Positions 3,594 through 29,524 of a stretch of DNA of 32,000 bases are shown here, piece after piece. This stretch comes from Desulfocapsa sulfexigens DSM 10523 (lineage in GTDB: Bacteria; Desulfobacterota; Desulfobulbia; Desulfobulbales; Desulfocapsaceae). The position numbers and the translations under genes were made by a program. Numbering within the stretch: the first letter of the stretch is position 1; each line of letters opens with the position of its first letter. The notes under the pieces were generated by a model that worked only from the letters and a program-made list of their open reading frames with translations, did no database searches and had not been told where the DNA came from. The stretch covers positions 1,680,001-1,712,000 of the forward strand of contig NC_020304.1 in the NCBI RefSeq assembly GCF_000341395.1, in the 5' to 3' direction.

Positions 3594-4697
3594 ATGAAGA
3601 AAAAACATCTTGTTCTGGCTGGTGCCGGTCATGCCCATATGGTAACCATGGCTGGCATTGCAGATTTCAGAAGCCTTGGTCATGAAGTGACGGTTGTCGG
3701 TCCATCGGATCATCATTACTATTCAGGGATGGGGCCAGGAATGCTTGGTAGCGGCTATGACCCCGAGGAAATCCGTTTTGCCGTGAGGCGTACTGTTGAA
3801 AGTCAGGGCGGAACCTTTATCCGGGATACGGTAACGGGGGTTGCCCCGGGCAGGCGTGAGTTGCATCTGGAGTCAGGCCAGGTTGTTTCCTATGATGTGC
3901 TTTCCTTTAATACCGGTAGTCATGTGGACATGCCGGATATTCGAGGAAATGCAAACCGAATATTCACCGTTAAACCCATTGAACGCCTGTACCAGGCTCG
4001 GACAGAGATTTTATCTCTGTCGCAACGGCAGGATGTGACCGTTGCTGTAATTGGTGGTGGGCCGGCGGGTGCTGAGGTGGCTGGGAACGTAGCGGAGCTT
4101 CTTGAGAAGACCGATTATCCTGCAAAGGTGTTTTTGTTTGCCGGACGTGGTCTGCTTGCAAAATTTCCTGCGGCTGTGCGCAGCACCAGTCGTGGGATCC
4201 TTACTAAATATGGAGTGGTTATCAGGGAGGAGGGGCATCTGCTGTCTATTACCGATAATCTTCTGCAGTTTGATTCAGGATCGACTGAGCTCGCCGATTT
4301 TGTCATTCTGGCAACTGGGGTACATCCTTCTCCTTTTTTTCGGAAGGCGGGCCTCCGCACAGGAGAAGACGGAGGGCTACTGGTGAACAAATATTTGCAA
4401 TGTCCCGATTATCCAGAAATTTTTGGTGGCGGGGATTGCATCTGGTTTGAGGATCAACCTCTTGCCAAAGTGGGTGTCTATGCGGTACGTGAAAATCCCG
4501 TACTCTTTCACAACCTGAAGGCATTCCTTCAGGGAGATGCACTACAGTCCTTTGATCCCGGTGGGGATTATCTTCTAATTTTTAACCTCGGTCATGGTCA
4601 GGGTGTTTTGCGTAAAAAGTGGTTTCAGATATCGGGGAAAGTTGCGTTCTGGGTTAAAGATTGGATAGACAGGAAATTTATGCGCACTTTTCAGTAA
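3594..4697 (+). CDS. FAD/NAD(P)-dependent pyridine nucleotide-disulfide oxidoreductase family protein (NDH-2/SQR-like fold)
   Basis: N-terminal Rossmann motif HLVLAGAGHAH, second dinucleotide motif VAVIGGGPAGAEVAG, and C-terminal FAD motif IFGGGDC. Confidence 0.85.
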   Translation: MKKKHLVLAGAGHAHMVTMAGIADFRSLGHEVTVVGPSDHHYYSGMGPGMLGSGYDPEEIRFAVRRTVESQGGTFIRDTVTGVAPGRRELHLESGQVVSYDVLSFNTGSHVDMPDIRGNANRIFTVKPIERLYQARTEILSLSQRQDVTVAVIGGGPAGAEVAGNVAELLEKTDYPAKVFLFAGRGLLAKFPAAVRSTSRGILTKYGVVIREEGHLLSITDNLLQFDSGSTELADFVILATGVHPSPFFRKAGLRTGEDGGLLVNKYLQCPDYPEIFGGGDCIWFEDQPLAKVGVYAVRENPVLFHNLKAFLQGDALQSFDPGGDYLLIFNLGHGQGVLRKKWFQISGKVAFWVKDWIDRKFMRTFQ

Positions 4698-4744
4698 GAA
4701 CAGGACGTTGTGGGCTTAGTAAGAAAAAAAGAGGGAGAGTTGAA

Positions 4745-5083
4745 ATGAAGGTTGACTGGCTGTATTTCCGTAAAGGTTGAACATCGTGCACTAAAGCCCA
4801 GGGGGCCCTTGAGCTGGCAGATGTGGAGATAGGTGAAATTGCTGATGCGCGAAAAAATGTGATTAAGGCTGATGCTGCCTGGGATATTATAAAGAATATT
4901 AAAACGTTGCATGTTGGAAAGGGTAAGAAAAATGTCGTTTTTGCTCCCGATGCGGATTTCAGAGATGAAATACTGAAGGTTACTCTTGGTCGTACAGGAA
5001 ACCTGAGAGCACCTGCCTTACGTATCGGAAAACGTATGTATGTTGGCTATAATGATACAATGTATGAGGAGTTGATCGGATGA
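4745..5083 (+). CDS. ArsC/Spx-family redox protein, predicted selenoprotein (in-frame TGA 4778-4780; U-T-S-C motif)
   Basis: ATG 4745 with SD GAGGGAGAG (4731-4739). It reads MKVDWLYFRKG-TGA-TSCTKAQGALE..., in the same frame as and contiguous with track ORF 4823..5083. The TGA sits where the first Cys of the Spx-type CxxC lies. The stop overlaps the next start (ATGA at 5080-5083). Confidence 0.8.
4796..4818 (+). promoter_or_regulatory. Candidate SECIS hairpin for the TGA at 4778
   Basis: GC(C)CAG / CTGGC stem with one bulged C and a 12-nt G-rich loop GGGGCCCTTGAG, starting 16 nt after the TGA. Confidence 0.4.
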
Positions 5084-5892
5084 ATTGGAAAAATCTGTTT
5101 GTCTCAGGGGCGAATATGAGCCCCGATGAAGTGAAGAACTTTATGGCTGAGCACAAGCCAGGGGACTACCAACTGCTCGATGTTCGGCAACCCAAGGAGT
5201 ATGAAAAGGAACATATCCCGGGAGCGCTTCTTATTCCTATAAAAGAGCTGAGAGAGCGTATAGGTGAGTTGGATCCAACGAAACCAACCTTTGTCTACTG
5301 ACATTCCGGAGTACGCAGCAAGGCTGCTGCGCAGTTATTACTGGCCGAGAATTTGCCTCATATTTACAATATGAGTGGCGGTATTATTGCCTATAATGGT
5401 GGGAAAGCTGTTGGTGATGAGGCCTTTGGCATGGAGTTTTTTGTCAGTGGGGAATTCAGCGATGTTTTTCGAATGAGTTACGCCATGGAAGAGGGGCTGC
5501 GGCAACTCTATTTGACCTTGAAGGATCTCTGCGAGGACAAAGAGGTCAAGGACCTTCTCGCCAGGTTGGCGCGGTTTGAAGAAGGGCACAAGGCAAAGTT
5601 AAAAGCCCTCTTTCCTGAGGTGGACGAAAAGGGTGGTGAGAACGACTTGAATACTCTTGAGGGGGGGTACAATAAACAGCAGCTACTCGATCATTTCAAA
5701 TCACGGGTTGTTGCCCAAAATGATGTTATTCAGCTTGGTATGATGCTTGAAACCCAGGCCTATGATTTGTACAGTCGTCTGGCCAAGAAAGCTGAAAATC
5801 CTGAGTCCAAAGAGTTCTTCGAGTTTATGGTTGGTGAGGAAAAACAGCATCTTGTTTTTCTCAGTAATGAGTATGATAAAGTCCTGGGCTAA
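5080..5892 (+). CDS. Rhodanese-domain protein with predicted selenocysteine in the active-site loop (TGA 5299-5301), fused to a C-terminal ferritin/rubrerythrin-like diiron domain
   Basis: Track ORFs 5080..5301 and 5353..5892 are in the same frame and separated only by TGA. Read-through gives ...KPTFVY-U-HSGVRSKAAAQLL..., which is the rhodanese C-x-x-G-x-R-S loop with U at the Cys position. The C-terminal half carries E / ExxH / E / ExxH (AMEEG, FEEGH, MLETQ, GEEKQH). Confidence 0.85.
5314..5331 (+). promoter_or_regulatory. Candidate SECIS hairpin for the TGA at 5299
   Basis: Perfect 7-bp stem CGCAGCA / TGCTGCG with loop AGGC, starting 13 nt after the TGA. Confidence 0.6.
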
Positions 5893-5900
5893 AACCATTT

Positions 5901-5925
5901 ATGCCCGACAGTCTCTGTCGGGCAT
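5901..5925 (+). terminator. Stem-loop ending the oxidoreductase/selenoprotein operon
   Basis: Perfect 11-bp stem ATGCCCGACAG tct CTGTCGGGCAT, 9 nt after the stop. There is no clean T-run, so terminator efficiency is uncertain. Confidence 0.55.
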
Positions 5926-6174: not shown

Positions 6175-6828
6175 ATGCAATTACGAATGACAAACCAGCG
6201 CGAGATGATCCTTCGGGAACTCAAGAAAAGCAAAAAACATCTAACGGCTGATGAGCTATACGAGCGGGTGAAAAAATTTATGCCGCGTATCAGCCTGGCA
6301 ACGGTATACAGGAATCTTGAGATCCTGTCCGATGCTGCAATGATCCGTAAACTTGAGATCAGTGGGCGGCAGAAACGCTTTGACAGTGAACTTGAAGATC
6401 ATGACCACATTTACTGTATCCAGTGTCATCGAATAGAGAATCTGGATATTGGGGAAAATGAGGTGACCCTGGGTGCTGTTGACACAAAGGGCTATGAAAT
6501 CACCGGACGTCGTTTGGAGGTGATTGGTTTGTGTCCCAAGTGTCAGGAAAAACAAACAAAAACAAATATAAAAGCTAAGAAAGGAGAGACTACAATGGCG
6601 TGCGGGTGTAAAAAAGGTGAGTTGAGTGGTGAACAGAAACAGGTCCTTGAGGCAATGGCTAATTGTGAGGGGCCCTGTGCTTCAAAAGATATTGCAACAG
6701 CAACTGGTCTTGAGACTAAACAGGTAAGTTGTCGGATCACAGCGCTCAAGAAAAAAGGATATGTGGACAGTCCGGTACGCTGTAAGTATGGGATTACCAG
6801 TGAAGGCAGGGCTGCCCTTAAGGGTTGA
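6175..6828 (+). CDS. Fur-family (PerR-like by context) metalloregulator with an in-frame 77-aa Cys-rich winged-helix C-terminal extension
   Basis: Residues 1-127 form a complete Fur-family protein (HTH, HDH, CIQC, CPKC). The frame stays open into MACGCKKGELSGEQKQVLEAMANCEGPCASKDIATATGLETKQVSCRITALKKKGYVDSPVRCKYGITSEGRAALKG. That segment has its own SD (AAGGAGAG 6580-6587) and ATG (6595). Confidence 0.85.
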   Translation: MQLRMTNQREMILRELKKSKKHLTADELYERVKKFMPRISLATVYRNLEILSDAAMIRKLEISGRQKRFDSELEDHDHIYCIQCHRIENLDIGENEVTLGAVDTKGYEITGRRLEVIGLCPKCQEKQTKTNIKAKKGETTMACGCKKGELSGEQKQVLEAMANCEGPCASKDIATATGLETKQVSCRITALKKKGYVDSPVRCKYGITSEGRAALKG

Positions 6829-6848
6829 TACGTATTTTAAGGTGTAGC

Positions 6849-7424
6849 ATGAGCAGTTTGAAAGGCAGTAAAACAGAAAAAAACATTCTTGTGGCTTTTG
6901 CCGGGGAATCGCAGGCAAGGAACAGATATTCGTATTATGCCAAGGTGGCTAAAAATGAGGGATATGTTCAGATTTCTGGGATTTTTAGTCGTACCGCAGA
7001 GCAGGAGCGGGCACATGCGAAAACCCTTTTGAAATTTCTTGAAGGCGGTGAGGTTGAAATTACAGCATCCTATCCTGTGACGCCTCCAGGTACTACAGTA
7101 GAGAATCTCCAGAATGCTGCCTCAGGAGAAGAACATGAATATAAAGCCATGTATCCCGAGTTTGCTGCGATTGCAGAAGAGGAAGGTTTTCCTCATGTGG
7201 CTGCAGCCATGCGTTCCATAGCTGTAGCTGAAAAAGAGCACGCAAGGGTTTATCGACGCCTTATTTCAAACATTAAGGCGGGTGCAGTGTTTGAGAGGGA
7301 TGTGGAGGTAACCTGGTATTGCGCAAAATGCGGTTTTGTCCATAGGGGGCTGAAGGCGCCGAAAAAATGTCCTGCCTGTGCCCATTCCCAGGCTTATTTT
7401 GAGATTCTGGTAGATAATATATAA
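6849..7424 (+). CDS. rbr: Rubrerythrin (diiron four-helix bundle plus C-terminal rubredoxin-like FeCys4 domain)
   Basis: N-terminus LKGSKTEKNILVAFAGESQARNRYSYYA, ExxH motifs (EQERAH, AEKEHA), and C-terminal CAKCG...CPAC. ATG 6849 follows AAGGTG. Confidence 0.95.
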   Translation: MSSLKGSKTEKNILVAFAGESQARNRYSYYAKVAKNEGYVQISGIFSRTAEQERAHAKTLLKFLEGGEVEITASYPVTPPGTTVENLQNAASGEEHEYKAMYPEFAAIAEEEGFPHVAAAMRSIAVAEKEHARVYRRLISNIKAGAVFERDVEVTWYCAKCGFVHRGLKAPKKCPACAHSQAYFEILVDNI

Positions 7425-7565
7425 GCCTTGTGGAAAGCCTCTTTATTTTTTTTGAAATGTCCCGACAGGGGATTTTCGTCCCACAAAGGGGTATTGAAAA
7501 AAAGTACCGGCTCTCTACGTTGCCGGTGTAAGTAGATTACTAATTAATAAAACTGTTGGAGATAT

Positions 7566-8162
7566 ATGATGAAACCTTTGGTAACCAATGAAGCCCCTGA
7601 CTTTACTGCGACTGCGGTTATGCCCGACAACACCTTTAACGAAGCGTTCAAACTGTCCGATATGCGGGGTAGATATGTACTGCTGTTTTTTTATCCCCTG
7701 GATTTTACCTTTGTTTGTCCGTCCGAAATTCTCGCTTTCAACTCTGCCGTGGAGCAGTTTAAGGAGAAGAATTGTGAAGTAGTCGGGGTTTCCGTTGATT
7801 CGCATTTCAGCCATCTTGCCTGGAAGAATACGCCAATCAACCAGGGTGGTATCGGTAATATTCAGTTTCCTCTGGTTGCTGATCTGGATAAATCTATTTC
7901 TGAAAATTATGGTATTCTCTTTGGTGGCACCATTGCCCTTCGTGGTCTCTATCTGATTGACAAAGAAGGAATTATTCGTCATCAGGTTGTCAATGATCTT
8001 CCCCTTGGCAGAAGTGTTTCCGAGGCCATGCGTATGCTTGATGCAATTCAGTTCGTTGAAGAGCATGGTGATGTCTGTCCTGCTAACTGGAGTAAGGGGG
8101 ATGATGCCATGGTTCCGACGGCAGAGGGTGTTGCTAAATATTTAACCGATCATATTGCGTAG
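7566..8162 (+). CDS. ahpC: Typical 2-Cys peroxiredoxin (AhpC/Prx1 type)
   Basis: Peroxidatic motif DFTFVCPSE and resolving VCPANW. SD GGAG at 7557-7560. Confidence 0.95.
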   Translation: MMKPLVTNEAPDFTATAVMPDNTFNEAFKLSDMRGRYVLLFFYPLDFTFVCPSEILAFNSAVEQFKEKNCEVVGVSVDSHFSHLAWKNTPINQGGIGNIQFPLVADLDKSISENYGILFGGTIALRGLYLIDKEGIIRHQVVNDLPLGRSVSEAMRMLDAIQFVEEHGDVCPANWSKGDDAMVPTAEGVAKYLTDHIA

Positions 8163-8303
8163 GGTTTTGTTTGGTTGGGTGTTTTTAGATAGATGCAGGA
8201 AGTGCTGGAAAAGCGGTGTTTGAAGCAGTAGACTTGTTTTTGACGGTGTGGGTTCTTTCTCTTTGGATAGAACTGTAACTTTTATCAAAATGGAGGCAGT
8301 ACT

Positions 8304-8678
8304 ATGGCTAAAAAATTAGGTGTATATAAGTGCAATATCTGTGGGAATGTGGCTGAAGTTGTCCACGCTGGAGCAGGGGATATGAGTTGTTGCGGTGCTC
8401 CCATGGAGCTACTCAGTGAAAACAGTGTGGATGCTGCTCAGGAAAAGCATGTTCCTGTGGTTGAGAAAGTTGCGGGTGGTTTTAAGGTAACCGTTGGAAG
8501 TGTTGATCATCCCATGACTGAGGATCATTATATTGAATGGATAGAACTTATTGCCGGTGATTCCTGCTATAGGCAGTTTCTGAATCCTGGTGATGCTCCA
8601 CGGGCTACCTTTCAGGTGGCTGCTGACAGTGCGGTGGCACGAGCTCACTGCAATCTGCACGGTCTCTGGAAGGCATAA
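8304..8678 (+). CDS. dfx: Desulfoferrodoxin (2Fe superoxide reductase)
   Basis: N-terminal desulforedoxin module [13 protein letters not shown]...[11 protein letters not shown] centre II ligands (KHVP, HPM, C..HGLW). SD GGAGG at 8292-8296. Confidence 0.95.
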
Positions 8679-8715
8679 AGATAACCCTATAGAAAAAAAT
8701 TTCAGGAACAGGTCG

Positions 8716-9132
8716 ATGTCGTTGCCAGAAGAGATGTATCAGTGTCAAATGGTGAACTGTGGTTACATTTACGATCCGGATAAGGGGGATCGTAAGAGTA
8801 AAATTAAAAAAGGTACGCAGTTTAAAGACCTTCCTGAAGGATGGAGATGCCCTGTTTGTGGGGCAACTGTAAAAGCGTTTAAACCACTGGCAGGACCCGG
8901 TTCAGTGCATGCCGAAAATGCATCTGCAGCTCCTGCCAAGACTGAAACTGAAATAAAAGGAACAGCGAGTGATATGAAAAAGTATAGATGCGATGTTTGT
9001 GGATATATCTACGACCCGGATGTGGGAGATGATGCTGCAGGGATTCCTGCAGGGACATCCTTTGATGACCTGCCCGATGATTATGAGTGTCCTGTCTGCG
9101 GAGCAGGGAAGGACGAATTCAGCGAAGTGTAG
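8716..9132 (+). CDS. Tandem (two-domain) rubredoxin
   Basis: Two rubredoxin modules: [13 protein letters not shown]...WRCPVCG and [11 protein letters not shown]...YECPVCG, joined by an A/P/T/E linker. The start could alternatively be ATG 8734. The track start 8590 overlaps dfx and is rejected. Confidence 0.9.
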
Positions 9133-9144
9133 GAATTTATTTAC

Positions 9145-9175
9145 AGGGGCCTCCATCATGGTGGCCCCTTTTTTA
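9145..9175 (+). terminator. Rho-independent terminator after the rubredoxin gene
   Basis: AGGGGCC ... GGCCCCT stem (11-nt loop) followed by TTTTT. Confidence 0.8.
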
Positions 9176-9260
9176 CAACGCTTGTAGTTTGCCTGGTTGT
9201 TGATGGCAGGCTTGAGTGTCTTCTTACGTCCTTGATTTTTCTTGAAAAATAGGTGTATAT

Positions 9261-9608
9261 ATGAAAAAGATTCTCCTTGTGGCCTTTCAGGGGCAGCCCA
9301 TGTGTTTTATTCATGTTTTGCTCAATGGACTTGAGTTGAAAACAGCTGGGCACGAATGTAAGATTATAATAGAAGGTGAGGCCACTACCTTGATCCCTGA
9401 AATAATAAAAGAATCGCATTTTCTTCACGGACTCTACAATCAAGTGAAGGAAGCGGGGTTGATTGAAGGCGTCTGTAAAGCATGTTCTATGAAAATGCAG
9501 GTCTTTGAACAAATAGAAAAAACAGGCCTTCCCTTGCTTGATGACATGTCTGGTCATCCTGGGATGGTGAAATATATTGAAAAGGGCTTTGAAATAGTAA
9601 ATTTCTGA
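9261..9608 (+). CDS. Small DsrE/YchN-like fold protein (function unknown; Cys-containing)
   Basis: 115 aa. It starts MKKILLVAFQGQPMCFIHVLLNG..., which is typical of small DsrE-like alpha/beta proteins, and has a CKAC pair. SD AGGTG lies 6 nt upstream. It sits 27 nt upstream of roo. Confidence 0.6.
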   Translation: MKKILLVAFQGQPMCFIHVLLNGLELKTAGHECKIIIEGEATTLIPEIIKESHFLHGLYNQVKEAGLIEGVCKACSMKMQVFEQIEKTGLPLLDDMSGHPGMVKYIEKGFEIVNF

Positions 9609-9635
9609 TTTTAAATTTTTAAGGAGGACAGGGAT

Positions 9636-10835
9636 ATGAATCCGGTTAAACTTATCGAAAATGTTTATTGGGTCGGTGCTGTGGACTGGGACGTTCGTGA
9701 TTTTCACGGATATTCTACTAACAGAGGTACCACGTATAATGCATTTTTAATTATGGATGAGAAGATTACTCTCATCGATACCGTAAAAAAATCGTGTAAA
9801 AACGACATGCTTGCCAGGATTAAGGAAATAGTTGATCCTGAAAAGATTGATTACATCGTAGTTAATCACGTGGAAATGGATCATTCCGGAAGTCTTCCAG
9901 ACATGGTCGAACTCATTAAGCCTGAAAAAATCATCTGTTCAAAGATGGGTGAGAAGGCGTTGGTGCAACATTTTCATCATGAAGACTGGCCCTATCAGAT
10001 TGCAAAGCCTGGCGAAGACGTGAGTCTTGGAGAAAAAACACTTTCTTTCCTCGAAACACGGATGCTGCACTGGCCCGATTCCATGTTTACCTATCTTGTA
10101 GAAGACCAGATACTTTTCTCTTCTGATGCCTTTGGTGAGCACCTTGGTACCAGTGAGCGTTTTGATGATGAAGTGGATCAGGCAATTCTTCTGGAAGAGC
10201 TTACAAAATATTATGCCAATATCCTGACCCTCTATTCACCACTGGTAAAGAAGTTGATTGCCAAGGTGAAGGAAATGAATTTACCAATCAAGATGATTGC
10301 TCCGGATCATGGTGTTATATGGCGTAAAAATCCAAACATGGCGATTGAAGCCTACGATAAGTGGAGCCAGGGAAGAGGTGATGGTAATGCCCTTGTGGTT
10401 TATGATACCATGTGGCATTCCACAGAAGAAATGGCCAAACGTGTCGGAGCAGGATTGCAGGATGAAGGTATTTCCTACCAGCTTGTTAATCTGCGTTATA
10501 ATCATCGCAGTGATGTTATGCGTGATGTGCTGAATGCCAGTGCTATTATTCTTGGCTGTCCTACATTGAATAATGGTTTGCTGCCTCGAATGGCTGGATT
10601 CCTGATGTATATGCGTGGATTACGTCCTCTTAATAAAGTTGGTGCTGCTTTTGGCTCTTTTGGCTGGTCAGGTGAGTCTGTAAAGTTACTCAACGAAGCT
10701 ATGACGGATATGAAATTTGATATTGTAGATGATGGACTGAAGGTGAAGTACGTCCCTGAAGATGCTGATTATCAGCAGTGTGTTGAACTTGGCCGGAAAG
10801 TGGGCCAGGCAATTAAGGCAAAACAGGCAGAATAG
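9636..10835 (+). CDS. roo: Flavodiiron protein (rubredoxin:oxygen oxidoreductase / FprA type): metallo-beta-lactamase-like diiron domain plus flavodoxin domain
   Basis: Diiron motif NHVEMDHSG, C-terminal flavodoxin-like domain (ALVVYDTMWHSTEEMA...), SD AAGGAGG. Confidence 0.95.
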   Translation: MNPVKLIENVYWVGAVDWDVRDFHGYSTNRGTTYNAFLIMDEKITLIDTVKKSCKNDMLARIKEIVDPEKIDYIVVNHVEMDHSGSLPDMVELIKPEKIICSKMGEKALVQHFHHEDWPYQIAKPGEDVSLGEKTLSFLETRMLHWPDSMFTYLVEDQILFSSDAFGEHLGTSERFDDEVDQAILLEELTKYYANILTLYSPLVKKLIAKVKEMNLPIKMIAPDHGVIWRKNPNMAIEAYDKWSQGRGDGNALVVYDTMWHSTEEMAKRVGAGLQDEGISYQLVNLRYNHRSDVMRDVLNASAIILGCPTLNNGLLPRMAGFLMYMRGLRPLNKVGAAFGSFGWSGESVKLLNEAMTDMKFDIVDDGLKVKYVPEDADYQQCVELGRKVGQAIKAKQAE

Positions 10836-11248: not shown

Positions 11249-13516
11249 TTATCCTCTCAAAAAGTTCAATGCCGAACCGGCCTTAAACCAGTCAATCTGC
11301 TCCTCGTTAAGGGAGTGATTCAAAGTTATTTCCGATGTTGTTCCATCATCATGATTCAACCGTGCAGTGATGGTTGAACCAGGTTTGATTTCAGTAATAC
11401 CCGTTAGATCTATAGTGTCACCCTCCTGAACCAGGTCATAATCAGCAGCATCTGCAAAGGTGAGAGGCAGGATACCCTGTTTCTTCAGATTGGTTTCATG
11501 GATGCGGGCAAATGAGCGGGTAATCACAGCTCTACCACCCATATGGCGTGGACACATGGCGGCATGTTCACGTGATGACCCTTCTCCGTAGTTTGTGTCA
11601 CCTACAACGACCCAGTTTTCACCTGCTGCTGTATACTCTCTCGCAATCGTGTTGTATTCCTGTAATTCACCGGTGAGTTGATTCCTTGCATTACCGGGTT
11701 CACCGGTAAATGCATTTACAGCACCACTGAACATGTTTCCTGAGATGTTATCCAGATGGCCTCTGAAACGGAGCCACGGGCCAGCTGGAGAAATATGATC
11801 GGTGGTACATTTTCCTTTGGCCTTCAACAGTAAATGCAGTCCAGTAAAATCTTTACCGTTCCAGCGGTCAAACGGAGTGAGCAGAGAAAGACGTTCAGAG
11901 TCTGGAGAAACCTGTACCGTAATATTGGTTCTGTCGTCAATTGGCGCGAGAAAGCCTTTATCATCGCGAACAAGTTTCAGGCGCGGTGTTTCATCCACTT
12001 TTCCTGGAGGGGTGAGAGTAAATGTGGATCCATCGGCTGCTGTATATTCTGTGGTAAACGGATTCACGGTGAAACTTCCAGTCATGGCATAGGCAAGACA
12101 GGTTTCAGGACTACCGATGAAAGCACTGGTGCCGGAGTTTCCGTCGTTTCGTTTGGGAAAATTACGATTATAGGATGTGACGATGGAGTTGCGGAATCCT
12201 TCCTCTATACCCTCACGGTTCCATTGACCAATGCAGGGGCCACAGGCATTGGCAAGCAGGGTAGCCCCAATGGCTTCGAGTTTGGCAAGCTGGCCATCCC
12301 GTTCTATGGTGGCTCGAATCTGCTCAGAACCAGGGGTGATGAGCATTGGGATCTTTAATTTGGCACCATGGGCGGCAATTTGCTCTGCCATAACGGTGAT
12401 TCTTCCCATATCCTCATAGGAAGAGTTGGTGCATGATCCCACCAGGGCATAGGTGATGTTTTCAGGATGTCCGCCATCTTTGACGTATTGGGTCATATTG
12501 GCAACGGTGCAGGCACGATCCGGGGAGTGGGGGCCTACAAGATGTGGTTCAAGGGTGGACAGGTCTAGCTCAATCACCTGATCAAAATAATTCTCGGGAT
12601 TGGCGAGTACTTCATCGTCTGCCCGGAGAAGGTGCTTGTATTTATCTGCCACCTGAGCAACATCCTCACGGTTACAGGCTGCAAGGAATGTTGCCATATG
12701 TTCGTCGTAGGGGAAGGTGGAGGTGGTAGCACCAAATTCAGCCCCCATGTTGCAGATAGTTGCCTTTCCTGTGCAGGAGATGGTGTCAGCACCGGGGCCA
12801 AAGTACTCAAAGACACGGTTTGTGCCTCCGGAACAGGTGAGTTTGCCAAGAAGATTAAGGATAACATCCTTTGGGGCAGCCCATCCCTGAAGTTCACCTG
12901 TGAGGTGAACACCTATAAATTTGGGATGCAGTACTTCCCAGGGAAGTCCCACCATTACATCCACGGCATCGGCACCACCAACTCCCGAGGCAAAGGCTCC
13001 AAGGCCACCGGCATGTGGTGTGTGTGAATCGGTACCCAGCATCATTAAACCTGGAAAACCGTACTGCTCAATCACCACCTGATGAATAATTCCCGCTCCC
13101 GGCATCCAGCAGCCAAAGCCATAGCGTTGGGATGCTGAGGAGAGAAAATCGTAGACTTCTCTGTTTTCGATGCGGGCAATATTGAGATCACTTTCGGCAC
13201 CCTTCTGGGCCCTTATGAGATGATCACAGTGAACGGTGACCGGAACTGCGGCTTCATTCTTGTCAGCAAGCATGAACTGAAGCACGGCCATCTGAGCGGT
13301 AGCATCCTGGAGAGCAACGCGATCAGGTCTGGTTTTGATATAAGATGAGCCGGCAACAAGCTCGGCATCATCAGCATTGTCCAGGTGTCCATAGAGGACT
13401 TTTTCACCATAGGTGAGGGCTCGGCCCATACGTTTACGGACGGTTGCAATATTTGCATCCATCTTTTTATATGTGGCTTCAATAAAAGCAGGTGTGGAAT
13501 CAACCGATGTGTTCAT
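11249..13516 (-). CDS. acn: Aconitate hydratase (about 755-aa, mitochondrial-type aconitase)
   Basis: 4Fe-4S ligand motifs GTDSHTP, GSCTNSS and NACGPCIGQW. Swivel domain at the C-terminus. SD GGAG. Confidence 0.95.
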   Translation of the reverse strand: MNTSVDSTPAFIEATYKKMDANIATVRKRMGRALTYGEKVLYGHLDNADDAELVAGSSYIKTRPDRVALQDATAQMAVLQFMLADKNEAAVPVTVHCDHLIRAQKGAESDLNIARIENREVYDFLSSASQRYGFGCWMPGAGIIHQVVIEQYGFPGLMMLGTDSHTPHAGGLGAFASGVGGADAVDVMVGLPWEVLHPKFIGVHLTGELQGWAAPKDVILNLLGKLTCSGGTNRVFEYFGPGADTISCTGKATICNMGAEFGATTSTFPYDEHMATFLAACNREDVAQVADKYKHLLRADDEVLANPENYFDQVIELDLSTLEPHLVGPHSPDRACTVANMTQYVKDGGHPENITYALVGSCTNSSYEDMGRITVMAEQIAAHGAKLKIPMLITPGSEQIRATIERDGQLAKLEAIGATLLANACGPCIGQWNREGIEEGFRNSIVTSYNRNFPKRNDGNSGTSAFIGSPETCLAYAMTGSFTVNPFTTEYTAADGSTFTLTPPGKVDETPRLKLVRDDKGFLAPIDDRTNITVQVSPDSERLSLLTPFDRWNGKDFTGLHLLLKAKGKCTTDHISPAGPWLRFRGHLDNISGNMFSGAVNAFTGEPGNARNQLTGELQEYNTIAREYTAAGENWVVVGDTNYGEGSSREHAAMCPRHMGGRAVITRSFARIHETNLKKQGILPLTFADAADYDLVQEGDTIDLTGITEIKPGSTITARLNHDDGTTSEITLNHSLNEEQIDWFKAGSALNFLRG

Positions 13517-13567: not shown

Positions 13568-13900
13568 TCAGGAGCGAATATGTTCTTCTTCAAGCATGGT
13601 GTCAATAAGATCAAGTACATATTGGCGTTGTTGTGGTGTCGCATGGGCAATGCAGTCACAATGTAAGTGTGCATTACTGCGAACCAGTAATTCAAAACAG
13701 ACTGAGTCCTTCTCGATTTCGACTCCGAAATAAAAGGGGGCACAATCTGTGTGTTTCTGTTGGACATCGGTAAGTAACTCTTCCGGTATGACTATCCAGT
13801 AAAGCCCGATCATGGGGCCCATTTTTAAATTACGTTTCAGGTAGGAGTCTATATTATCCCGTTCCATGGGGGATAGATCATCAACAACGAATTGGCGCAT
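13568..13900 (-). CDS. Hypothetical small Cys/His-containing protein
   Basis: 110-aa ORF co-directional with and between phoH2 and acn. It has HTDC and HLHCDCIAH motifs. There is no clear SD, so the start is uncertain. Confidence 0.55.
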   Translation of the reverse strand: MRQFVVDDLSPMERDNIDSYLKRNLKMGPMIGLYWIVIPEELLTDVQQKHTDCAPFYFGVEIEKDSVCFELLVRSNAHLHCDCIAHATPQQRQYVLDLIDTMLEEEHIRS

Positions 13901-26080: not shown

Positions 26081-27076
26081 TTAACTGGCCTGTTCCAGAG
26101 CGACAGCAACAGCAACCGATGCTCCAACCATGGGATTGTTTCCCATACCGATAAGGCCCATCATTTCAACATGTGCGGGTACCGAGGAAGATCCGGCAAA
26201 CTGGGCATCGGAATGCATGCGTCCCATGGTGTCTGTCATTCCGTAGGATGCAGGGCCAGCTGCCATGTTGTCAGGATGAAGAGTACGTCCCGTTCCGCCA
26301 CCTGATGCAACAGAAAAATATTTTTTTCCACTAATATTGCATTCCTTTTTGTAGGTTCCTGCAACGGGATGCTGAAAACGGGTAGGGTTGGTAGAGTTTC
26401 CAGTAATGGAGACATCGACTCCTTCCAGATGATTGATGGCAACACCTTCACGGACATCATCTGCACCATAGCAGCGAACCTCTCCACGAGGGCCTTCGGA
26501 AAAACGTTTTTCCTTTATGACTTTCAGCTGCGAGGTGGCATAATCAAACCGTGTCTCCACACTGGTGAAGCCGTTGATGCGGGAAATGATATGTGAGGCA
26601 TCCTTGCCGAGACCATTCAGGATTACACGCAGCGGTTCTTTCCGGACACGGTTTGCAGACATGGCCAGGCCGATAGCCCCTTCAGCCGCGGCAAAAGACT
26701 CATGTCCAGCAATAAAGGCAAAGCATTTTGTCTCTTCACGCAGGAGCATGGAGGCAAGATTTCCGTGCCCTATACCTACCTGACGATGATCCGCAACGGA
26801 TCCCGGGATGCAGAAAGCCTGAAGTCCAATACCAAGAGTTGCGGCAATATCAACGGCCTTTGTCTCCCCTTTTTTGATGGCAATGGCAGCACCAACGGTA
26901 TATGCCCAGCAGGCATTTTCAAAGCAGATGGGCTGGATGTCTTTTACAATACGGGCAACATCAACACCATATGCATCACATACTTCCTTGGCCTCTTCAA
27001 GGCTTTTTATTCCATACTCTTCAAGAACAGGGATGATCTGATCGATCCGCCTTTCATAACTTTCAAATAATGCCAT
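26081..27076 (-). CDS. GGGtGRT-family protein (conserved, function unknown)
   Basis: About 331 aa. The namesake motif SGGGTGRTLHPDNMAAGPASYGMTD lies near the C-terminus. ATG 27076 has SD AAGGAG. The track start 27181 overlaps the upstream gene and is rejected. Confidence 0.85.
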   Translation of the reverse strand: MALFESYERRIDQIIPVLEEYGIKSLEEAKEVCDAYGVDVARIVKDIQPICFENACWAYTVGAAIAIKKGETKAVDIAATLGIGLQAFCIPGSVADHRQVGIGHGNLASMLLREETKCFAFIAGHESFAAAEGAIGLAMSANRVRKEPLRVILNGLGKDASHIISRINGFTSVETRFDYATSQLKVIKEKRFSEGPRGEVRCYGADDVREGVAINHLEGVDVSITGNSTNPTRFQHPVAGTYKKECNISGKKYFSVASGGGTGRTLHPDNMAAGPASYGMTDTMGRMHSDAQFAGSSSVPAHVEMMGLIGMGNNPMVGASVAVAVALEQAS

Positions 27077-27086
27077 GAGATTCTCC

Positions 27087-27779
27087 TTATTCCTTACGCG
27101 GATCAATGGTTTTAACGGCTTCTGCGAAACGACCATAGGTCCCCGTCGCTTTTTCAAGGGCCTTGTTGGCGTCTTCACCATTTCTAATTGCTTCCATCAT
27201 TCGACCAAGATGGACAAATTTGTAGCCAATGATTTCATTGTCACCATCAAGGGCCAGCTCCAGAACATAGCCTTCGGTGACTTCAAGATATCGTGGGCCT
27301 TTGAGCTTTGTGCCATAGGTGCTTGCCGTAACGGAACGCAATCCTTTACCCAGGTCTTCAAGACCGGCACCAATGGGAAGACCTCCCTCAGAAAATGCGG
27401 ATTGGCTGCGGCCATAGACGATTTGCAGGAAGAGTTCGCGCATGGCAACATTGATGGCATCACAGACAAGATCAGTATTGAGTGCTTCTAGGATTGTTTT
27501 GCCGGGCAAAATCTCAGAGGCCATGGCGGCGGAATGGGTCATTCCGGTACAGCCAATGGTTTCGATGAGTGCTTCTTCGATAATGCCGTCTTTAATATTC
27601 AGGGTCAGCTTACAGGCGCCCTGATGAGGTGCACACCAGCCAACTCCGTGGGTCAGTCCACGAATGTCTTTTATTTCCTTTGCCTGTGTCCAGCCACCTT
27701 CTTGGGGGATGGGCGAGGGACCATGATTGGTTCCCTGGATTAGTGGACACATTTCTTTTACTTCAGAAGAGTATTCCAT
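27087..27779 (-). CDS. NifU-N/IscU-like Fe-S scaffold-domain protein with a C-terminal extension
   Basis: ATG 27779 has SD AAGGAG 8 nt upstream. IscU-like Cys pattern (GVGWCAPHQGAC, IGCTGMTHSAAMAS, LVCDAI). The stop lies 10 nt before the GGGtGRT start. Confidence 0.8.
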   Translation of the reverse strand: MEYSSEVKEMCPLIQGTNHGPSPIPQEGGWTQAKEIKDIRGLTHGVGWCAPHQGACKLTLNIKDGIIEEALIETIGCTGMTHSAAMASEILPGKTILEALNTDLVCDAINVAMRELFLQIVYGRSQSAFSEGGLPIGAGLEDLGKGLRSVTASTYGTKLKGPRYLEVTEGYVLELALDGDNEIIGYKFVHLGRMMEAIRNGEDANKALEKATGTYGRFAEAVKTIDPRKE

Positions 27780-28043
27780 AAGAGTCTCCTTGTGGTTGTT
27801 ATTGAAGCTGCAAGAATAAAGGATATGGGAAAAAGGAGCAAGTGGAAAGGAGCTTCCCTGGAGGAAGAGGTTGGTCGGATAGCGACAAATTTGCTGTAAT
27901 GATTCTGCAATTACATTGCAGCAGTGTTGTCGAGGTTGATAATATCTTGAATACACAAAATCTGTTGTATCACTGAAGTTACTTCTAAGAACAGTTATAT
28001 AACTCTTGTGTGATGGTCTTTCATCTGGAGCCTGACCCGGAAG

Positions 28044-28090
28044 AAACAAAGCCAAAAGGCCACCCCCCTAAGGGAGTGGCCTTGGGTCAG
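28044..28090 (-). terminator. Terminator of the ECF-linked operon (minus strand), nested stem-loops
   Basis: AAGGCCAC ... GTGGCCTT (28056-28063 / 28076-28083). On the minus strand it is followed by TTTTGGCTTTGTTTCTT. Outer 7-bp pairing CTGACCC / GGGTCAG (28032-28038 / 28084-28090). Confidence 0.75.
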
Positions 28091-28149
28091 TCTGCAAAAT
28101 TGCAGATTGATTCAAGCAAATTTAAAATCCAAGTTCCTTTGTTGACAGT

Positions 28150-29106
28150 TTAGCGTCCAGATCCACCATTTGATCCACCATTGCCACCACTACCGCCATT
28201 GCCCCCACCATTGCCACCGTCTGAGTTGCCTCCGCTACTGTCTCCACCTGAACCAGAGTCGCCAGCGGAGCCATTATTGCCGCCTCCATCTGACCCTCCG
28301 CTATCAGCGTTTCCGGCGTCGGTATTGCCGCCGAATGAGTTTCCTCTATTGTCCAGGGAGCCATTTCCATTCTGAATGGCGTCTGAATAGTTCTTTGCCA
28401 GCGATTCCCCAGATCCCAGGGCGCTTTGGGACATAAATGAACTGCGCAGGGATTGCATTTCCTGTACGTTGAAATCTTTATCCAAAGCCTGGTTTACAAC
28501 ATCTGTTGCAGTCTCTGACAATACACCTTGTCGCACCATATCTCGGGCAGTTAACATACATTCGGTTGCCAGATCTTCCAGTTGGCTCTGTTCCATTTCA
28601 CGTGCCCTCACCTGGAGGCGACTGACAATCTGTTCAGCATCCTCCCTGGAAAGACCAGCAGCACTCCCTGATGCAAACGCATTACCAAGCGTATCTACCA
28701 CCTCTTTTTTCTTGGATAATTGACCGGCAAGACCATATGCATGTTCGTAACGGGATCTAACCCTTTCCATTGCCTGGACAACCGATTCCGCAGGAATTCC
28801 TTTTGCTATGCCTTCGTATGCCTTGTTCATAACTGGCTCTACCGGCAGGTCATTTTTCAGGGTTTTCGCTACAATGTGCTGAGCCTTTACAATGTTACGC
28901 TCTTCAAATTGAGCCCTGATCATTGCCCGGGTCATGAGTACGCCATCATCTTTCTCCAGTCCGGCTTGAATGACGCTTTGTGTTGAAGCCTGAAGCTCAT
29001 TTGACCAGGCAGTGGGGATATCTGTAACCTCTTCTGCAGCAGAAGCTGAAACAGCCATTAAAACCAGACTCAACCAAACTAAAATAGAATAAACACCTCT
29101 TTTCAT
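28150..29106 (-). CDS. Secreted helical protein with a roughly 70-aa Gly/Ser/Asn/Asp low-complexity C-terminal tail
   Basis: ATG 29106 with SD GGAGGA. Signal peptide MKRGVYSILVWLSLVLMAVSASA. The tail is ...GNGSLDNRGNSFGGNTDAGNADSGGSDGGGNNGSAGDSGSGGDSSGGNSDGGNGGGNGGSGGNGGSNGGSGR. Confidence 0.75.
   Translation of the reverse strand: MKRGVYSILVWLSLVLMAVSASAAEEVTDIPTAWSNELQASTQSVIQAGLEKDDGVLMTRAMIRAQFEERNIVKAQHIVAKTLKNDLPVEPVMNKAYEGIAKGIPAESVVQAMERVRSRYEHAYGLAGQLSKKKEVVDTLGNAFASGSAAGLSREDAEQIVSRLQVRAREMEQSQLEDLATECMLTARDMVRQGVLSETATDVVNQALDKDFNVQEMQSLRSSFMSQSALGSGESLAKNYSDAIQNGNGSLDNRGNSFGGNTDAGNADSGGSDGGGNNGSAGDSGSGGDSSGGNSDGGNGGGNGGSGGNGGSNGGSGR
28153..28370 (-). repeat. Imperfect short tandem repeats encoding the G/S/N/D tail
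   Basis: The plus strand shows reiterated CCACCATTGCC / CCGCCATTGCC / CCTCC units. Confidence 0.7.
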
Positions 29107-29200
29107 ACCTTCCTCCAAAACACATATTGACTTTCCATGGCAGCTCGTTGCAACAAGCCTTATATCTTTACAACGTCTGACAAACGAAAAGGTTACCAGT

Positions 29201-29524
29201 CTAAGGCTGATAAAGGCAATTTTCAAAACCGAAATCATCGGTTTCCCTGAAGCGACAGTCTGGAATAAAAACAGACCCATCAATAATATAAAAATAGCTG
29301 CTCCCAGGGGTAAGTGGCTTGCTGATTTCCCATAATCCAAACAGATTCCTATGGGTGTCATGAAGTGTGTATCTGTCGATAGAAGATGCAAACTGGACAT
29401 GGGAGGAGCCAGGGTGGTGCAAGTACAAAGATACCGATTCCCGACCCTCGGTAGTGAAATGATGTCCAGCACAGCCAGTACCGAAAAACAGTAGACAACT
29501 CAAAACCATCACTTGTTTGTTCAT
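29201..29524 (-). CDS. Small exported (possibly lipo-)protein with a CBM48/AMPK-beta-like beta-sandwich domain
   Basis: Signal sequence MNKQVMVLSCLLFFGTGC. The body (VSLYLHHPGSSHVQFASSIDRYTLH...GLWEISKPLTPGSSYFYIIDGSVFIPD...DDFGFENCLY) resembles the C-domain of the anti-sigma protein next door. Confidence 0.7.
   Translation of the reverse strand: MNKQVMVLSCLLFFGTGCAGHHFTTEGRESVSLYLHHPGSSHVQFASSIDRYTLHDTHRNLFGLWEISKPLTPGSSYFYIIDGSVFIPDCRFRETDDFGFENCLYQP

What the first reader, a model, noticed from the sequence alone, without database searches (positions are those of the whole stretch)
4745..5083. ArsC/Spx-like gene recoded by an in-frame UGA (U-T-S-C redox motif), truncated in the ORF track
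A well-placed SD (GAGGGAGAG) and ATG 4745 open a frame reading MKVDWLYFRKG-TGA-TSCTKAQGALELADVEIGEI... It continues without interruption into the 86-aa track ORF, which starts only at an internal GTG. The TGA occupies the first position of an x-T-S-C-x-K-A motif at the end of beta-1. As I recall, Spx carries C-T-S-C there and ArsC-family proteins carry their nucleophilic Cys there. A bulged G-rich-loop hairpin follows 16 nt downstream. A Sec-x-x-Cys arrangement is the standard layout of redox selenoproteins, and deltaproteobacteria are known to be selenoprotein-rich. Standard gene callers would report only a fragment lacking the active site.
Basis: partly seen in the sequence, partly recalled or inferred. 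Interest (0 to 1): 0.72.

Follow-up and report, generated by a model that had tools for sequence, protein, structure and literature searches.

The report
Known ArsC/Spx-like selenoprotein gene
The in-frame TGA at 4778 is very probably a selenocysteine codon in a small thioredoxin-fold redox protein, but that selenoprotein family has been catalogued since 2008, so this is a correct call rather than a discovery.

Summary
ATG 4745 opens a frame that crosses TGA 4778-4780 and ends at 5083 (112 codons), and the mechanical ORF list holds only the 86-aa GTG fragment.

The read-through product passes the curated NCBIfam model NF041106, "ArsC family (seleno)protein" (123 bits, cutoff 85).

- **TGA conservation:** 78 of the 80 best related genome loci, from several phyla, have TGA at the same column; 2 have Cys, as do other full-length homologs.
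- **Coding signature:** The nine codons analysed upstream of the TGA vary mainly at third positions.
- **SECIS-like hairpin:** A hairpin with a GGC loop lies 23 nt after the TGA and essentially fits the published bacterial SECIS model. Its MFE is borderline. It recurs in most Sec forms.
- **Organism:** The window is from Desulfocapsa sulfexigens DSM 10523, which the literature lists as Sec-utilising. Its original GenBank record calls only the 86-aa fragment.
- **Prior description:** The family appeared in 2008 as "Arsenate reductase 2, UxxC". By the tests run here it is neither Spx nor a bona fide arsenate reductase.
- **Neighbouring gene:** The translationally coupled downstream gene (5080-5892), a rhodanese/diiron fusion, has a second Sec-type TGA at its active-site Cys. 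RefSeq holds its two halves as separate proteins.

Verdict: already known, low interest.

The parts
4731..4739 (+). Shine-Dalgarno-like GAGGGAGAG, 5 nt before the ATG
   Evidence: Read directly from the sequence.
4745..5083 (+). Full ArsC/Spx-like selenoprotein gene: 112 codons plus stop, with Sec at codon 12
   Evidence: Translation. NF041106 hit at 123 bits against a cutoff of 85. Homolog alignment.
4778..4780 (+). In-frame TGA, predicted selenocysteine codon (U12 of the U-T-S-C motif)
   Evidence: TGA in 78 of the 80 best genome loci at this column, Cys in 2. Cys in full-length homologs. Aligns with Spx Cys10.
4787..4789 (+). TGC encoding Cys15, the presumed resolving Cys of UxxC
   Evidence: Cys in 77 of 78 distinct Sec-form sequences. 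Aligns with the second Cys of the Spx CTSC motif.
4795..4815 (+). Bacterial SECIS-like hairpin with apical loop GGC at 4804-4806; an extended stem is possible over 4781-4824
   Evidence: Folds. Recurs in 76 of 80 Sec forms with at least 5 bp, and the loop starts with G in 69. Pair counts with shuffle and slide controls. Criteria taken from PMC13188914.
4823..5083 (+). The 86-aa GTG fragment that ordinary gene callers report (AGF78055.1, UWK_01495)
   Evidence: ORF list. Exact look-up of the sequence. JGI gene calls in L085.
3594..4697 (+). Upstream FAD-dependent pyridine nucleotide-disulfide oxidoreductase, 47 nt before the selenoprotein gene
   Evidence: Pfam Pyr_redox_2. TIGR03169 'Nterm_to_SelD' at 258 bits, below its cutoff of 310. 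Syntenic in 11 other loci.
5080..5892 (+). Downstream rhodanese plus rubrerythrin-like diiron fusion gene. Its ATG overlaps the ArsC-like stop (ATGA). It carries a second in-frame TGA at 5299-5301, at the rhodanese active-site Cys position.
   Evidence: Pfam Rhodanese and Rubrerythrin. TGA/TGC/TGT at the same codon in 22 sequences. Synteny in about 25 loci.
5314..5331 (+). SECIS-like hairpin of the rhodanese gene: 7-bp stem, loop AGGC, -10.4 kcal/mol
   Evidence: Folds. The GCAGC/GCUGC core stem (5-7 bp) is present in all 8 TGA forms and changed in the 14 Cys forms.
5901..5925 (.). 11-bp palindromic hairpin after the rhodanese fusion gene, a possible end of the operon
   Evidence: Terminator scan, which is a consensus match only.

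Best explanation
Gene 4745-5083 encodes a 112-residue thioredoxin-fold protein of the ArsC/Spx superfamily. Codon 12 (UGA) is decoded as selenocysteine by SelB and tRNA-Sec, directed by the hairpin at 4795-4815.

The product carries a U-T-S-C redox centre at the N-terminus of helix 1. It most likely acts as a selenol/thiol-disulfide oxidoreductase: Sec12 attacks an oxidised sulfur substrate, and Cys15 resolves the adduct as a selenenylsulfide.

**Shown:** the recoded frame, family membership, the Cys/Sec column, the conserved hairpin and the fold.

**Inferred:** the catalytic cycle and the partners. Gene order suggests the upstream FAD oxidoreductase as reductant and the downstream rhodanese(Sec)/diiron protein as partner or substrate.
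For: - **Family model:** NF041106 'ArsC family (seleno)protein', E = 7e-36, 123 bits against a cutoff of 85.
- **TGA column:** TGA in 78 of the 80 best genome loci, from Desulfobacterota, Poribacteria, SAR324, Calditrichaeota and others; Cys in 2. Full-length database homologs have Cys there, or W where TGA was read as Trp.
- **Coding signature:** Codon-position entropy upstream of the TGA is typical of coding sequence.
- **Hairpin:** 3-nt loop GGC, 5-bp upper stem, 23 nt after the UGA. MFE is -7.4 kcal/mol for the bare hairpin and -8.5 with flanks.
- **Hairpin recurrence:** It recurs in 76 of 80 Sec forms. It has 36 double-change cells against 10.5 in shuffles, and 75.8% of cells paired against at most 52.8% in slid controls.
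- **Structure:** The PDB profile search hits Spx at 1.5e-6 with CTSC aligned. An AlphaFold model of Cys homolog P0084 has pLDDT 93.6, and its best fold match is Spx.
- **Genetic code:** TGA is an ordinary stop in 7 of 25 window genes, so the code is not reassigned.
- **Organism:** It is listed as Sec-utilising.
- **Operon:** A second TGA-recoded gene with its own hairpin lies in the same operon.
Against: - No experimental proof of selenium incorporation exists for this protein.
- The window holds no selA, selB, selC or selD. The machinery rests on a literature table.
- The hairpin's energy is not better than shuffles (z = -0.36).
- RNAalifold found no consensus structure.
- Part of the stem conservation may come from the conserved A-Q-x-x-L-E peptide.
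- Two Cys forms (L082, L065) also retain a hairpin.
- The minimal hairpin MFE of -7.4 is marginally weaker than the model's threshold of -7.5.
- The substrate and the redox partners are unknown.
Confidence: 0.92

Rival explanations
1. The TGA is a true stop. The real gene is the 86-aa ORF starting at GTG 4823 (or there is no gene at all), and the upstream 11 codons are a decayed remnant.
For: This is what the original GenBank annotation and most public gene calls show. The hairpin energy is unremarkable against shuffles.
Against: - A remnant would not keep W-7, R-3 and the S-C of the motif invariant, with free third positions, across 78 species of several phyla.
- The 86-aa product would lack beta-1 and helix 1 of the fold.
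- Cys-containing homologs are full length.
Confidence: 0.03
2. The TGA is read through as a standard amino acid (Trp, Cys or Gly) by near-cognate suppression or a variant code. It is not decoded as selenocysteine.
For: Some public gene calls of homologs show W at this column (P0010, P0076). These probably come from calling with a TGA=Trp table.
Against: - TGA terminates 7 of 25 well-supported genes in the window, including this gene itself.
- The column alternates only with Cys.
- A SECIS-type hairpin sits at the canonical distance.
- The organism is catalogued as Sec-utilising.
Confidence: 0.03
3. It is a selenoprotein, but it works as a redox-sensing transcription regulator like Spx rather than as an enzyme.
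For: The closest solved structures and sequence profiles are Spx, with the CXXC motif aligned.
Against: - Scores against the curated Spx models are far below cutoff: 21.6 against 123, and 17.1 against 159.
- The TM-score is only about 0.53.
- The protein is about 20 residues shorter than Spx.
- Its neighbours are redox enzymes, with translational coupling to a rhodanese.
Confidence: 0.07

Closest known systems
NCBIfam NF041106 'ArsC family (seleno)protein'. Called 'Arsenate reductase 2 (cd03032, UxxC)' in Zhang & Gladyshev 2008 (PMC2398784) and 'Arsenate reductase-like protein' in the 2026 review PMC13188914.
   Same: It scores above the curated cutoff, at 123 bits against 85. It has the same UxxC motif and the same size, and it is a Sec/Cys family.
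   Different: Nothing differs in kind. This is one more member. The conserved neighbourhood with a rhodanese(Sec)/diiron fusion and an FAD oxidoreductase is not mentioned in the papers read.
Spx/MgsR redox-sensing RNA polymerase-binding regulators (PDB 1z3e, 3gfk, 6ghb)
   Same: It shares the ArsC-type thioredoxin fold. C-T-S-C aligns with U-T-S-C, and a G-x-L-R-x-P element and a V-G-[YF]-N-[ED] element are also shared.
   Different: It is far below the Spx model cutoffs. It is shorter, and the TM-score is about 0.5. Sec replaces the first Cys. There is no evidence of RNA polymerase binding.
Glutaredoxin-coupled arsenate reductase ArsC (PF03960, TIGR00014) and its selenoprotein form 'Arsenate reductase 1, UxxS' (PMC1088965)
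   Same: It belongs to the same superfamily, and the nucleophile sits at the same position after beta-1.
   Different: The Pfam ArsC score is 12.4 bits against a cutoff of 24. The motif is UxxC rather than UxxS. No Pfam-annotated gene in the window is an ars-type gene.
Escherichia coli fdhF-type bacterial SECIS and the consensus bSECIS model of Zhang & Gladyshev 2005, as summarised in PMC13188914
   Same: The hairpin lies within the coding region just 3' of the UGA. It has a small apical loop starting GG, 23 nt after the UGA, within the model's 16-37 nt range.
   Different: The sequence is unrelated to fdhF. The window copy has a C/A mismatch in the stem, and its minimal-hairpin energy is borderline.

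Membership tests
NF041106 ArsC family (seleno)protein | Whole-protein HMM score at or above the curated cutoff of 85 bits | tested here: met
   123 bits, E = 7.3e-36, covering residues 3-107 of the protein against positions 1-107 of the 107-position profile, with U entered as C.
NF041106 ArsC family (seleno)protein | UxxC (or CxxC) motif after beta-1 | tested here: met
   The motif is U12-T-S-C15. The column is TGA in 78 of the 80 best genome loci and Cys in the other 2. The second Cys is present in 77 of 78 distinct sequences.
Bacterial selenoprotein (general) | The in-frame UGA aligns with Cys in homologs, with conservation on both sides | tested here: met
Bacterial selenoprotein (general) | bSECIS hairpin: 3-9 nt loop, upper stem of at least 4 bp, G in the first two loop positions, 16-37 nt from the UGA, MFE of -7.5 kcal/mol or lower (PMC13188914 Fig. 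2 legend) | tested here: met
   The loop is GGC, the upper stem is 5 bp, and the spacing is 23 nt. MFE is -7.4 for the bare hairpin, -8.5 with 3-6 nt flanks, and -15.1 for the extended stem. The energy criterion is borderline for the bare hairpin.
Bacterial selenoprotein (general) | selA, selB, selC (tRNA-Sec) and selD present in the genome | not testable with these tools
   None is in the 32-kb window. Indirect evidence: Peng et al. 2016 Table S2 lists D. sulfexigens DSM 10523 among Sec-utilising organisms with 14 selenoproteins.
Bacterial selenoprotein (general) | Selenium demonstrated in the polypeptide | not testable with these tools
   This needs 75Se labelling or mass spectrometry.
Spx / SpxA transcriptional regulator | Score above the curated cutoffs of the Spx models | tested here: not met
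   NF002459 scores 21.6 bits against 123. NF009210 scores 17.1 against 159. TIGR01617 scores 15.5 against 75.
Spx / SpxA transcriptional regulator | N-terminal CXXC redox switch | tested here: met
   U-T-S-C aligns with C-T-S-C of Bacillus subtilis Spx.
ArsC arsenate reductase (PF03960) | Pfam gathering score of 24 bits | tested here: not met
   12.4 bits, E = 0.2, over the C-terminal 23 residues only.
ArsC arsenate reductase (PF03960) | Catalytic Arg triad and ars operon context | tested here: inconclusive
   No ars-type gene was found among the Pfam-annotated ORFs of the window. The Arg triad was not aligned against a reference ArsC. Only R88 of G-N-L-R-A-P is invariant.

The most novel reading that the evidence does not exclude
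The FAD oxidoreductase (3594-4697), the ArsC-like Sec protein (4745-5083) and the rhodanese(Sec)/diiron fusion (5080-5892) may form one dedicated module with two selenoproteins. It would be an NAD(P)H-driven selenol relay that processes persulfide or polysulfide sulfur, or delivers selenium, in sulfur-disproportionating Desulfocapsaceae.

The oxidoreductase is a relative of the SelD-linked TIGR03169 domain.

The rhodanese/diiron selenoprotein has no NCBIfam model passing cutoff. RefSeq holds its two halves as separate proteins.
Probability: 0.3. Interest if true: 0.45.

Novelty: already known. Interest (0 to 1): 0.22.

Why it matters
For the gene itself the value is a corrected annotation. UWK_01495 is a 112-residue selenoprotein, not an 86-aa hypothetical protein, and its active site lies in the part that gene callers discard.

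The same problem affects most public homologs, which are stored as 73-95 aa fragments.

The wider value is modest. The conserved pairing with a second selenoprotein, a rhodanese fused to a diiron domain, gives a testable lead on the function of an uncharacterised family. The organism lives by sulfur disproportionation, which makes a sulfur-handling role plausible.

Tried and rejected
- **RNAalifold on 77 Sec-form sequences** gave no consensus structure. The stem register differs by 3 nt in one subgroup, so I used a named-structure count and per-sequence hairpin search instead.
- **Rfam and ARAGORN** found nothing in the window.
I modelled the Cys homolog P0084 instead.
- **Neighbour clustering** produced a large 'cluster 1' that turned out to be antisense ORFs overlapping the gene. 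I discarded it.
- **The bioF/bioG-like genes** downstream in 12 Desulfobulbus-type loci were judged unrelated context, from reading representative sequences only.
- **A scan of the whole window** for other TGA-split genes found only the two selenoprotein genes as credible cases.
- **Retrieving the D. sulfexigens locus** by exact protein look-up failed.
- **Haft & Tolstoy 2025** was not in the held library.
- **An alternative genetic code** was rejected from stop-codon usage.

Full report
**1. Observation**

The sequence is as described.
- GAGGGAGAG lies at 4731-4739, and ATG 4745 follows 5 nt later.
- The frame reads MKVDWLYFRKG, then TGA (4778-4780), then TSCTKAQGALELADVEIGEI..., and ends at TGA 5081-5083.
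- The mechanical ORF list has only 4823..5083, 86 aa, with a GTG start.

**2. Family**

With U entered as C, the 112-residue product matches NCBIfam NF041106, "ArsC family (seleno)protein". The score is E = 7.3e-36 and 123 bits against a curated cutoff of 85.
- Pfam ArsC scores only 12.4 bits against a cutoff of 24.
- The curated Spx models score 15-22 bits against cutoffs of 75-159.

By these tests the protein belongs to the ArsC/Spx superfamily but is neither Spx nor a classical arsenate reductase.

**3. Homologs**

A search of 5.8 billion proteins found 109 relatives, most of them 73-95 aa fragments. The full-length relatives have Cys at the TGA column (P0074, P0077, P0078, P0080-82, P0084). 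Two have W there (P0010, P0076), most likely because TGA was called as Trp.

A scan of one genome per species found at least 598 loci.
- Of the best 80, 78 carry TGA at the identical column and 2 carry Cys.
- The taxa include Desulfocapsaceae, Desulfobulbaceae, Desulfuromonadales, Poribacteria, SAR324, Calditrichaeota and Planctomycetota.
- The consensus upstream of the TGA is M-x-I-[DE]-W-[AM]-Y-[LF]-R-K-G.
- Codon analysis of 78 distinct Sec forms shows third-position entropy of 1.6-1.9 bits at most of the nine upstream codons analysed. First and second positions are mostly below 1 bit.
- W at -7 and R at -3 are invariant.

This is purifying selection on a translated frame that runs across the TGA.

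**4. SECIS**

The published bacterial model, read in PMC13188914, asks for four things:
- a 3-9 nt loop and a 4-16 bp upper stem;
- G in one of the first two loop positions;
- 16-37 nt between the UGA and the loop;
- MFE of -7.5 kcal/mol or lower.

The window hairpin (4795-4815) has loop GGC, a 5-bp upper stem, a C/A mismatch and then 3 more pairs. The loop starts 23 nt after the UGA. MFE is -7.4 kcal/mol for the bare hairpin, -8.5 with short flanks, and -15.1 for the extended stem.

Its energy does not differ from shuffles (z = -0.36), so I relied on comparison across homologs.
- Among 80 Sec forms, 76 have a stem of at least 5 bp.
- The loop starts with G in 69 of them, and at nucleotide 27 in 54.
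- The named structure is 75.8% paired, against 70.1% in shuffles and at most 52.8% when slid.
- It has 36 double-change cells against 10.5 expected.

Caveats apply. The stem overlaps a conserved A-Q-x-x-L-E peptide, and RNAalifold gave no consensus. Among the 6 Cys-form loci examined, the three Desulfobacter-type loci and L077 lack a comparable hairpin, but L082 and L065 keep one.

**5. Structure**

A profile of the family hits Spx structures at E = 1.5e-6, with C-T-S-C aligned to U-T-S-C. The window protein could not be submitted for modelling. An AlphaFold model of the Cys homolog P0084 has pLDDT 93.6 and places the first Cys between beta-1 and helix 1. Foldseek ranks Spx first, then ArsC-related proteins, YffB and glutaredoxins, at TM-scores of about 0.5.

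**6. Organism and machinery**

Exact look-ups identify the window as Desulfocapsa sulfexigens DSM 10523.
- The 86-aa fragment is AGF78055.1, hypothetical protein UWK_01495.
- The upstream oxidoreductase is AGF78054.1.

The window holds no tRNA and no sel genes. Peng et al. 2016 list this strain among Sec-utilising organisms with 14 known selenoproteins (PMC5029168 Table S2). TGA is an ordinary stop in 7 of 25 well-supported window genes, so the genetic code is standard.

**7. Prior knowledge**

The family was reported as "Arsenate reductase 2, cd03032, UxxC", with 42 sequences, in the GOS selenoproteome (PMC2398784). [quoted passage not shown] The distinct UxxS arsenate reductase selenoprotein dates from 2005 (PMC1088965). 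The finding is therefore a correct re-discovery.

**8. Context and likely mechanism**

The gene lies 47 nt after an FAD-dependent pyridine nucleotide-disulfide oxidoreductase. That enzyme is related to TIGR03169 "Nterm_to_SelD" at 258 bits, below the cutoff of 310.

The stop of the ArsC-like gene overlaps the ATG of a rhodanese plus rubrerythrin-like fusion gene at 5080-5892. That gene has its own in-frame TGA (5299-5301) at the rhodanese active-site position, F-V-Y-U-H-S-G-V-R-S.

Twenty-two sequences carry this fusion gene with the active-site motif.
- All 8 with TGA have a GCAGC/AAGG/GCUGC-type hairpin about 15 nt downstream.
- In the 14 with TGC or TGT, that stem sequence is changed.

This is a natural Sec/Cys contrast.

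The ArsC-like/rhodanese pairing holds in about 25 loci, and the oxidoreductase is present in 12, counting the window. A Desulfobacterales genome (L035) keeps all three genes in a different order, with a multihaem cytochrome c gene between them.

Directly downstream lies an oxidative-stress cluster: Fur/PerR-like, rubrerythrin, peroxiredoxin, desulfoferrodoxin, rubredoxin and a flavodiiron protein.

My inference, which is not shown: Sec12 attacks an oxidised sulfur species, perhaps the rhodanese persulfide or a selenenylsulfide. Cys15 then resolves the adduct, and the flavoprotein re-reduces the centre with NAD(P)H.

**9. Verdict**

The kind is already known. What remains of interest is the unannotated rhodanese/diiron selenoprotein and the conserved three-gene module.

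Noticed in passing
window 5080-5892 (TGA at 5299-5301; hairpin 5314-5331): A rhodanese plus rubrerythrin-like (two ExxH motifs) fusion gene has an in-frame TGA at the rhodanese active-site Cys. RefSeq holds its halves as two proteins: WP_052326975.1 (73 aa, rhodanese-like) and WP_167320727.1 (179 aa, ferritin family). No NCBIfam model passes cutoff. All 8 TGA forms carry a GCAGC/GCUGC hairpin, and the 14 Cys forms do not.
   Followed up: partly
window 3594-4697: An FAD-dependent oxidoreductase with no CxxxxC redox disulfide. It is related to the SelD-linked TIGR03169 domain at 258 bits, below the cutoff of 310. It is syntenic with the two selenoprotein genes in 11 other loci.
   Followed up: partly
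L035 6001-10115: A Desulfobacterales genome keeps the ArsC-like(Sec), rhodanese(Sec)/diiron and oxidoreductase genes in a different order. A 539-aa protein with multiple CxxCH motifs lies between them.
   Followed up: partly
window 6175-10835: An oxidative-stress cluster lies directly downstream. It holds a Fur/PerR-like regulator with an extra C-terminal wHTH, rubrerythrin, 1-Cys-type peroxiredoxin, desulfoferrodoxin, a double rubredoxin and a flavodiiron protein.
   Followed up: no
window 13568-13900 and 11249-13516, minus strand: A 110-aa ORF with no Pfam hit lies in the same frame as the aconitase gene downstream of it, separated by a TGA and about 17 codons. This is probably coincidence.
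   Followed up: no
window 26081-29472, minus strand: A GGGtGRT-family protein (PF14057, 655 bits) is followed by two long ORFs (322 and 440 aa) with no Pfam match.
   Followed up: no
L014, L023, L025-L029, L031, L033, L051, L065, L069: In 12 Desulfobulbus-type loci the ArsC-like gene is followed by ORFs that, by eye, look like bioF (8-amino-7-oxononanoate synthase) and an esterase of the bioG/bioH type, instead of the rhodanese fusion. These were not checked against any profile library.
   Followed up: no
P0010, P0076: Two public protein records of homologs show Trp at the Sec column. TGA was evidently translated with a TGA=Trp table in those metagenome gene calls.
   Followed up: no
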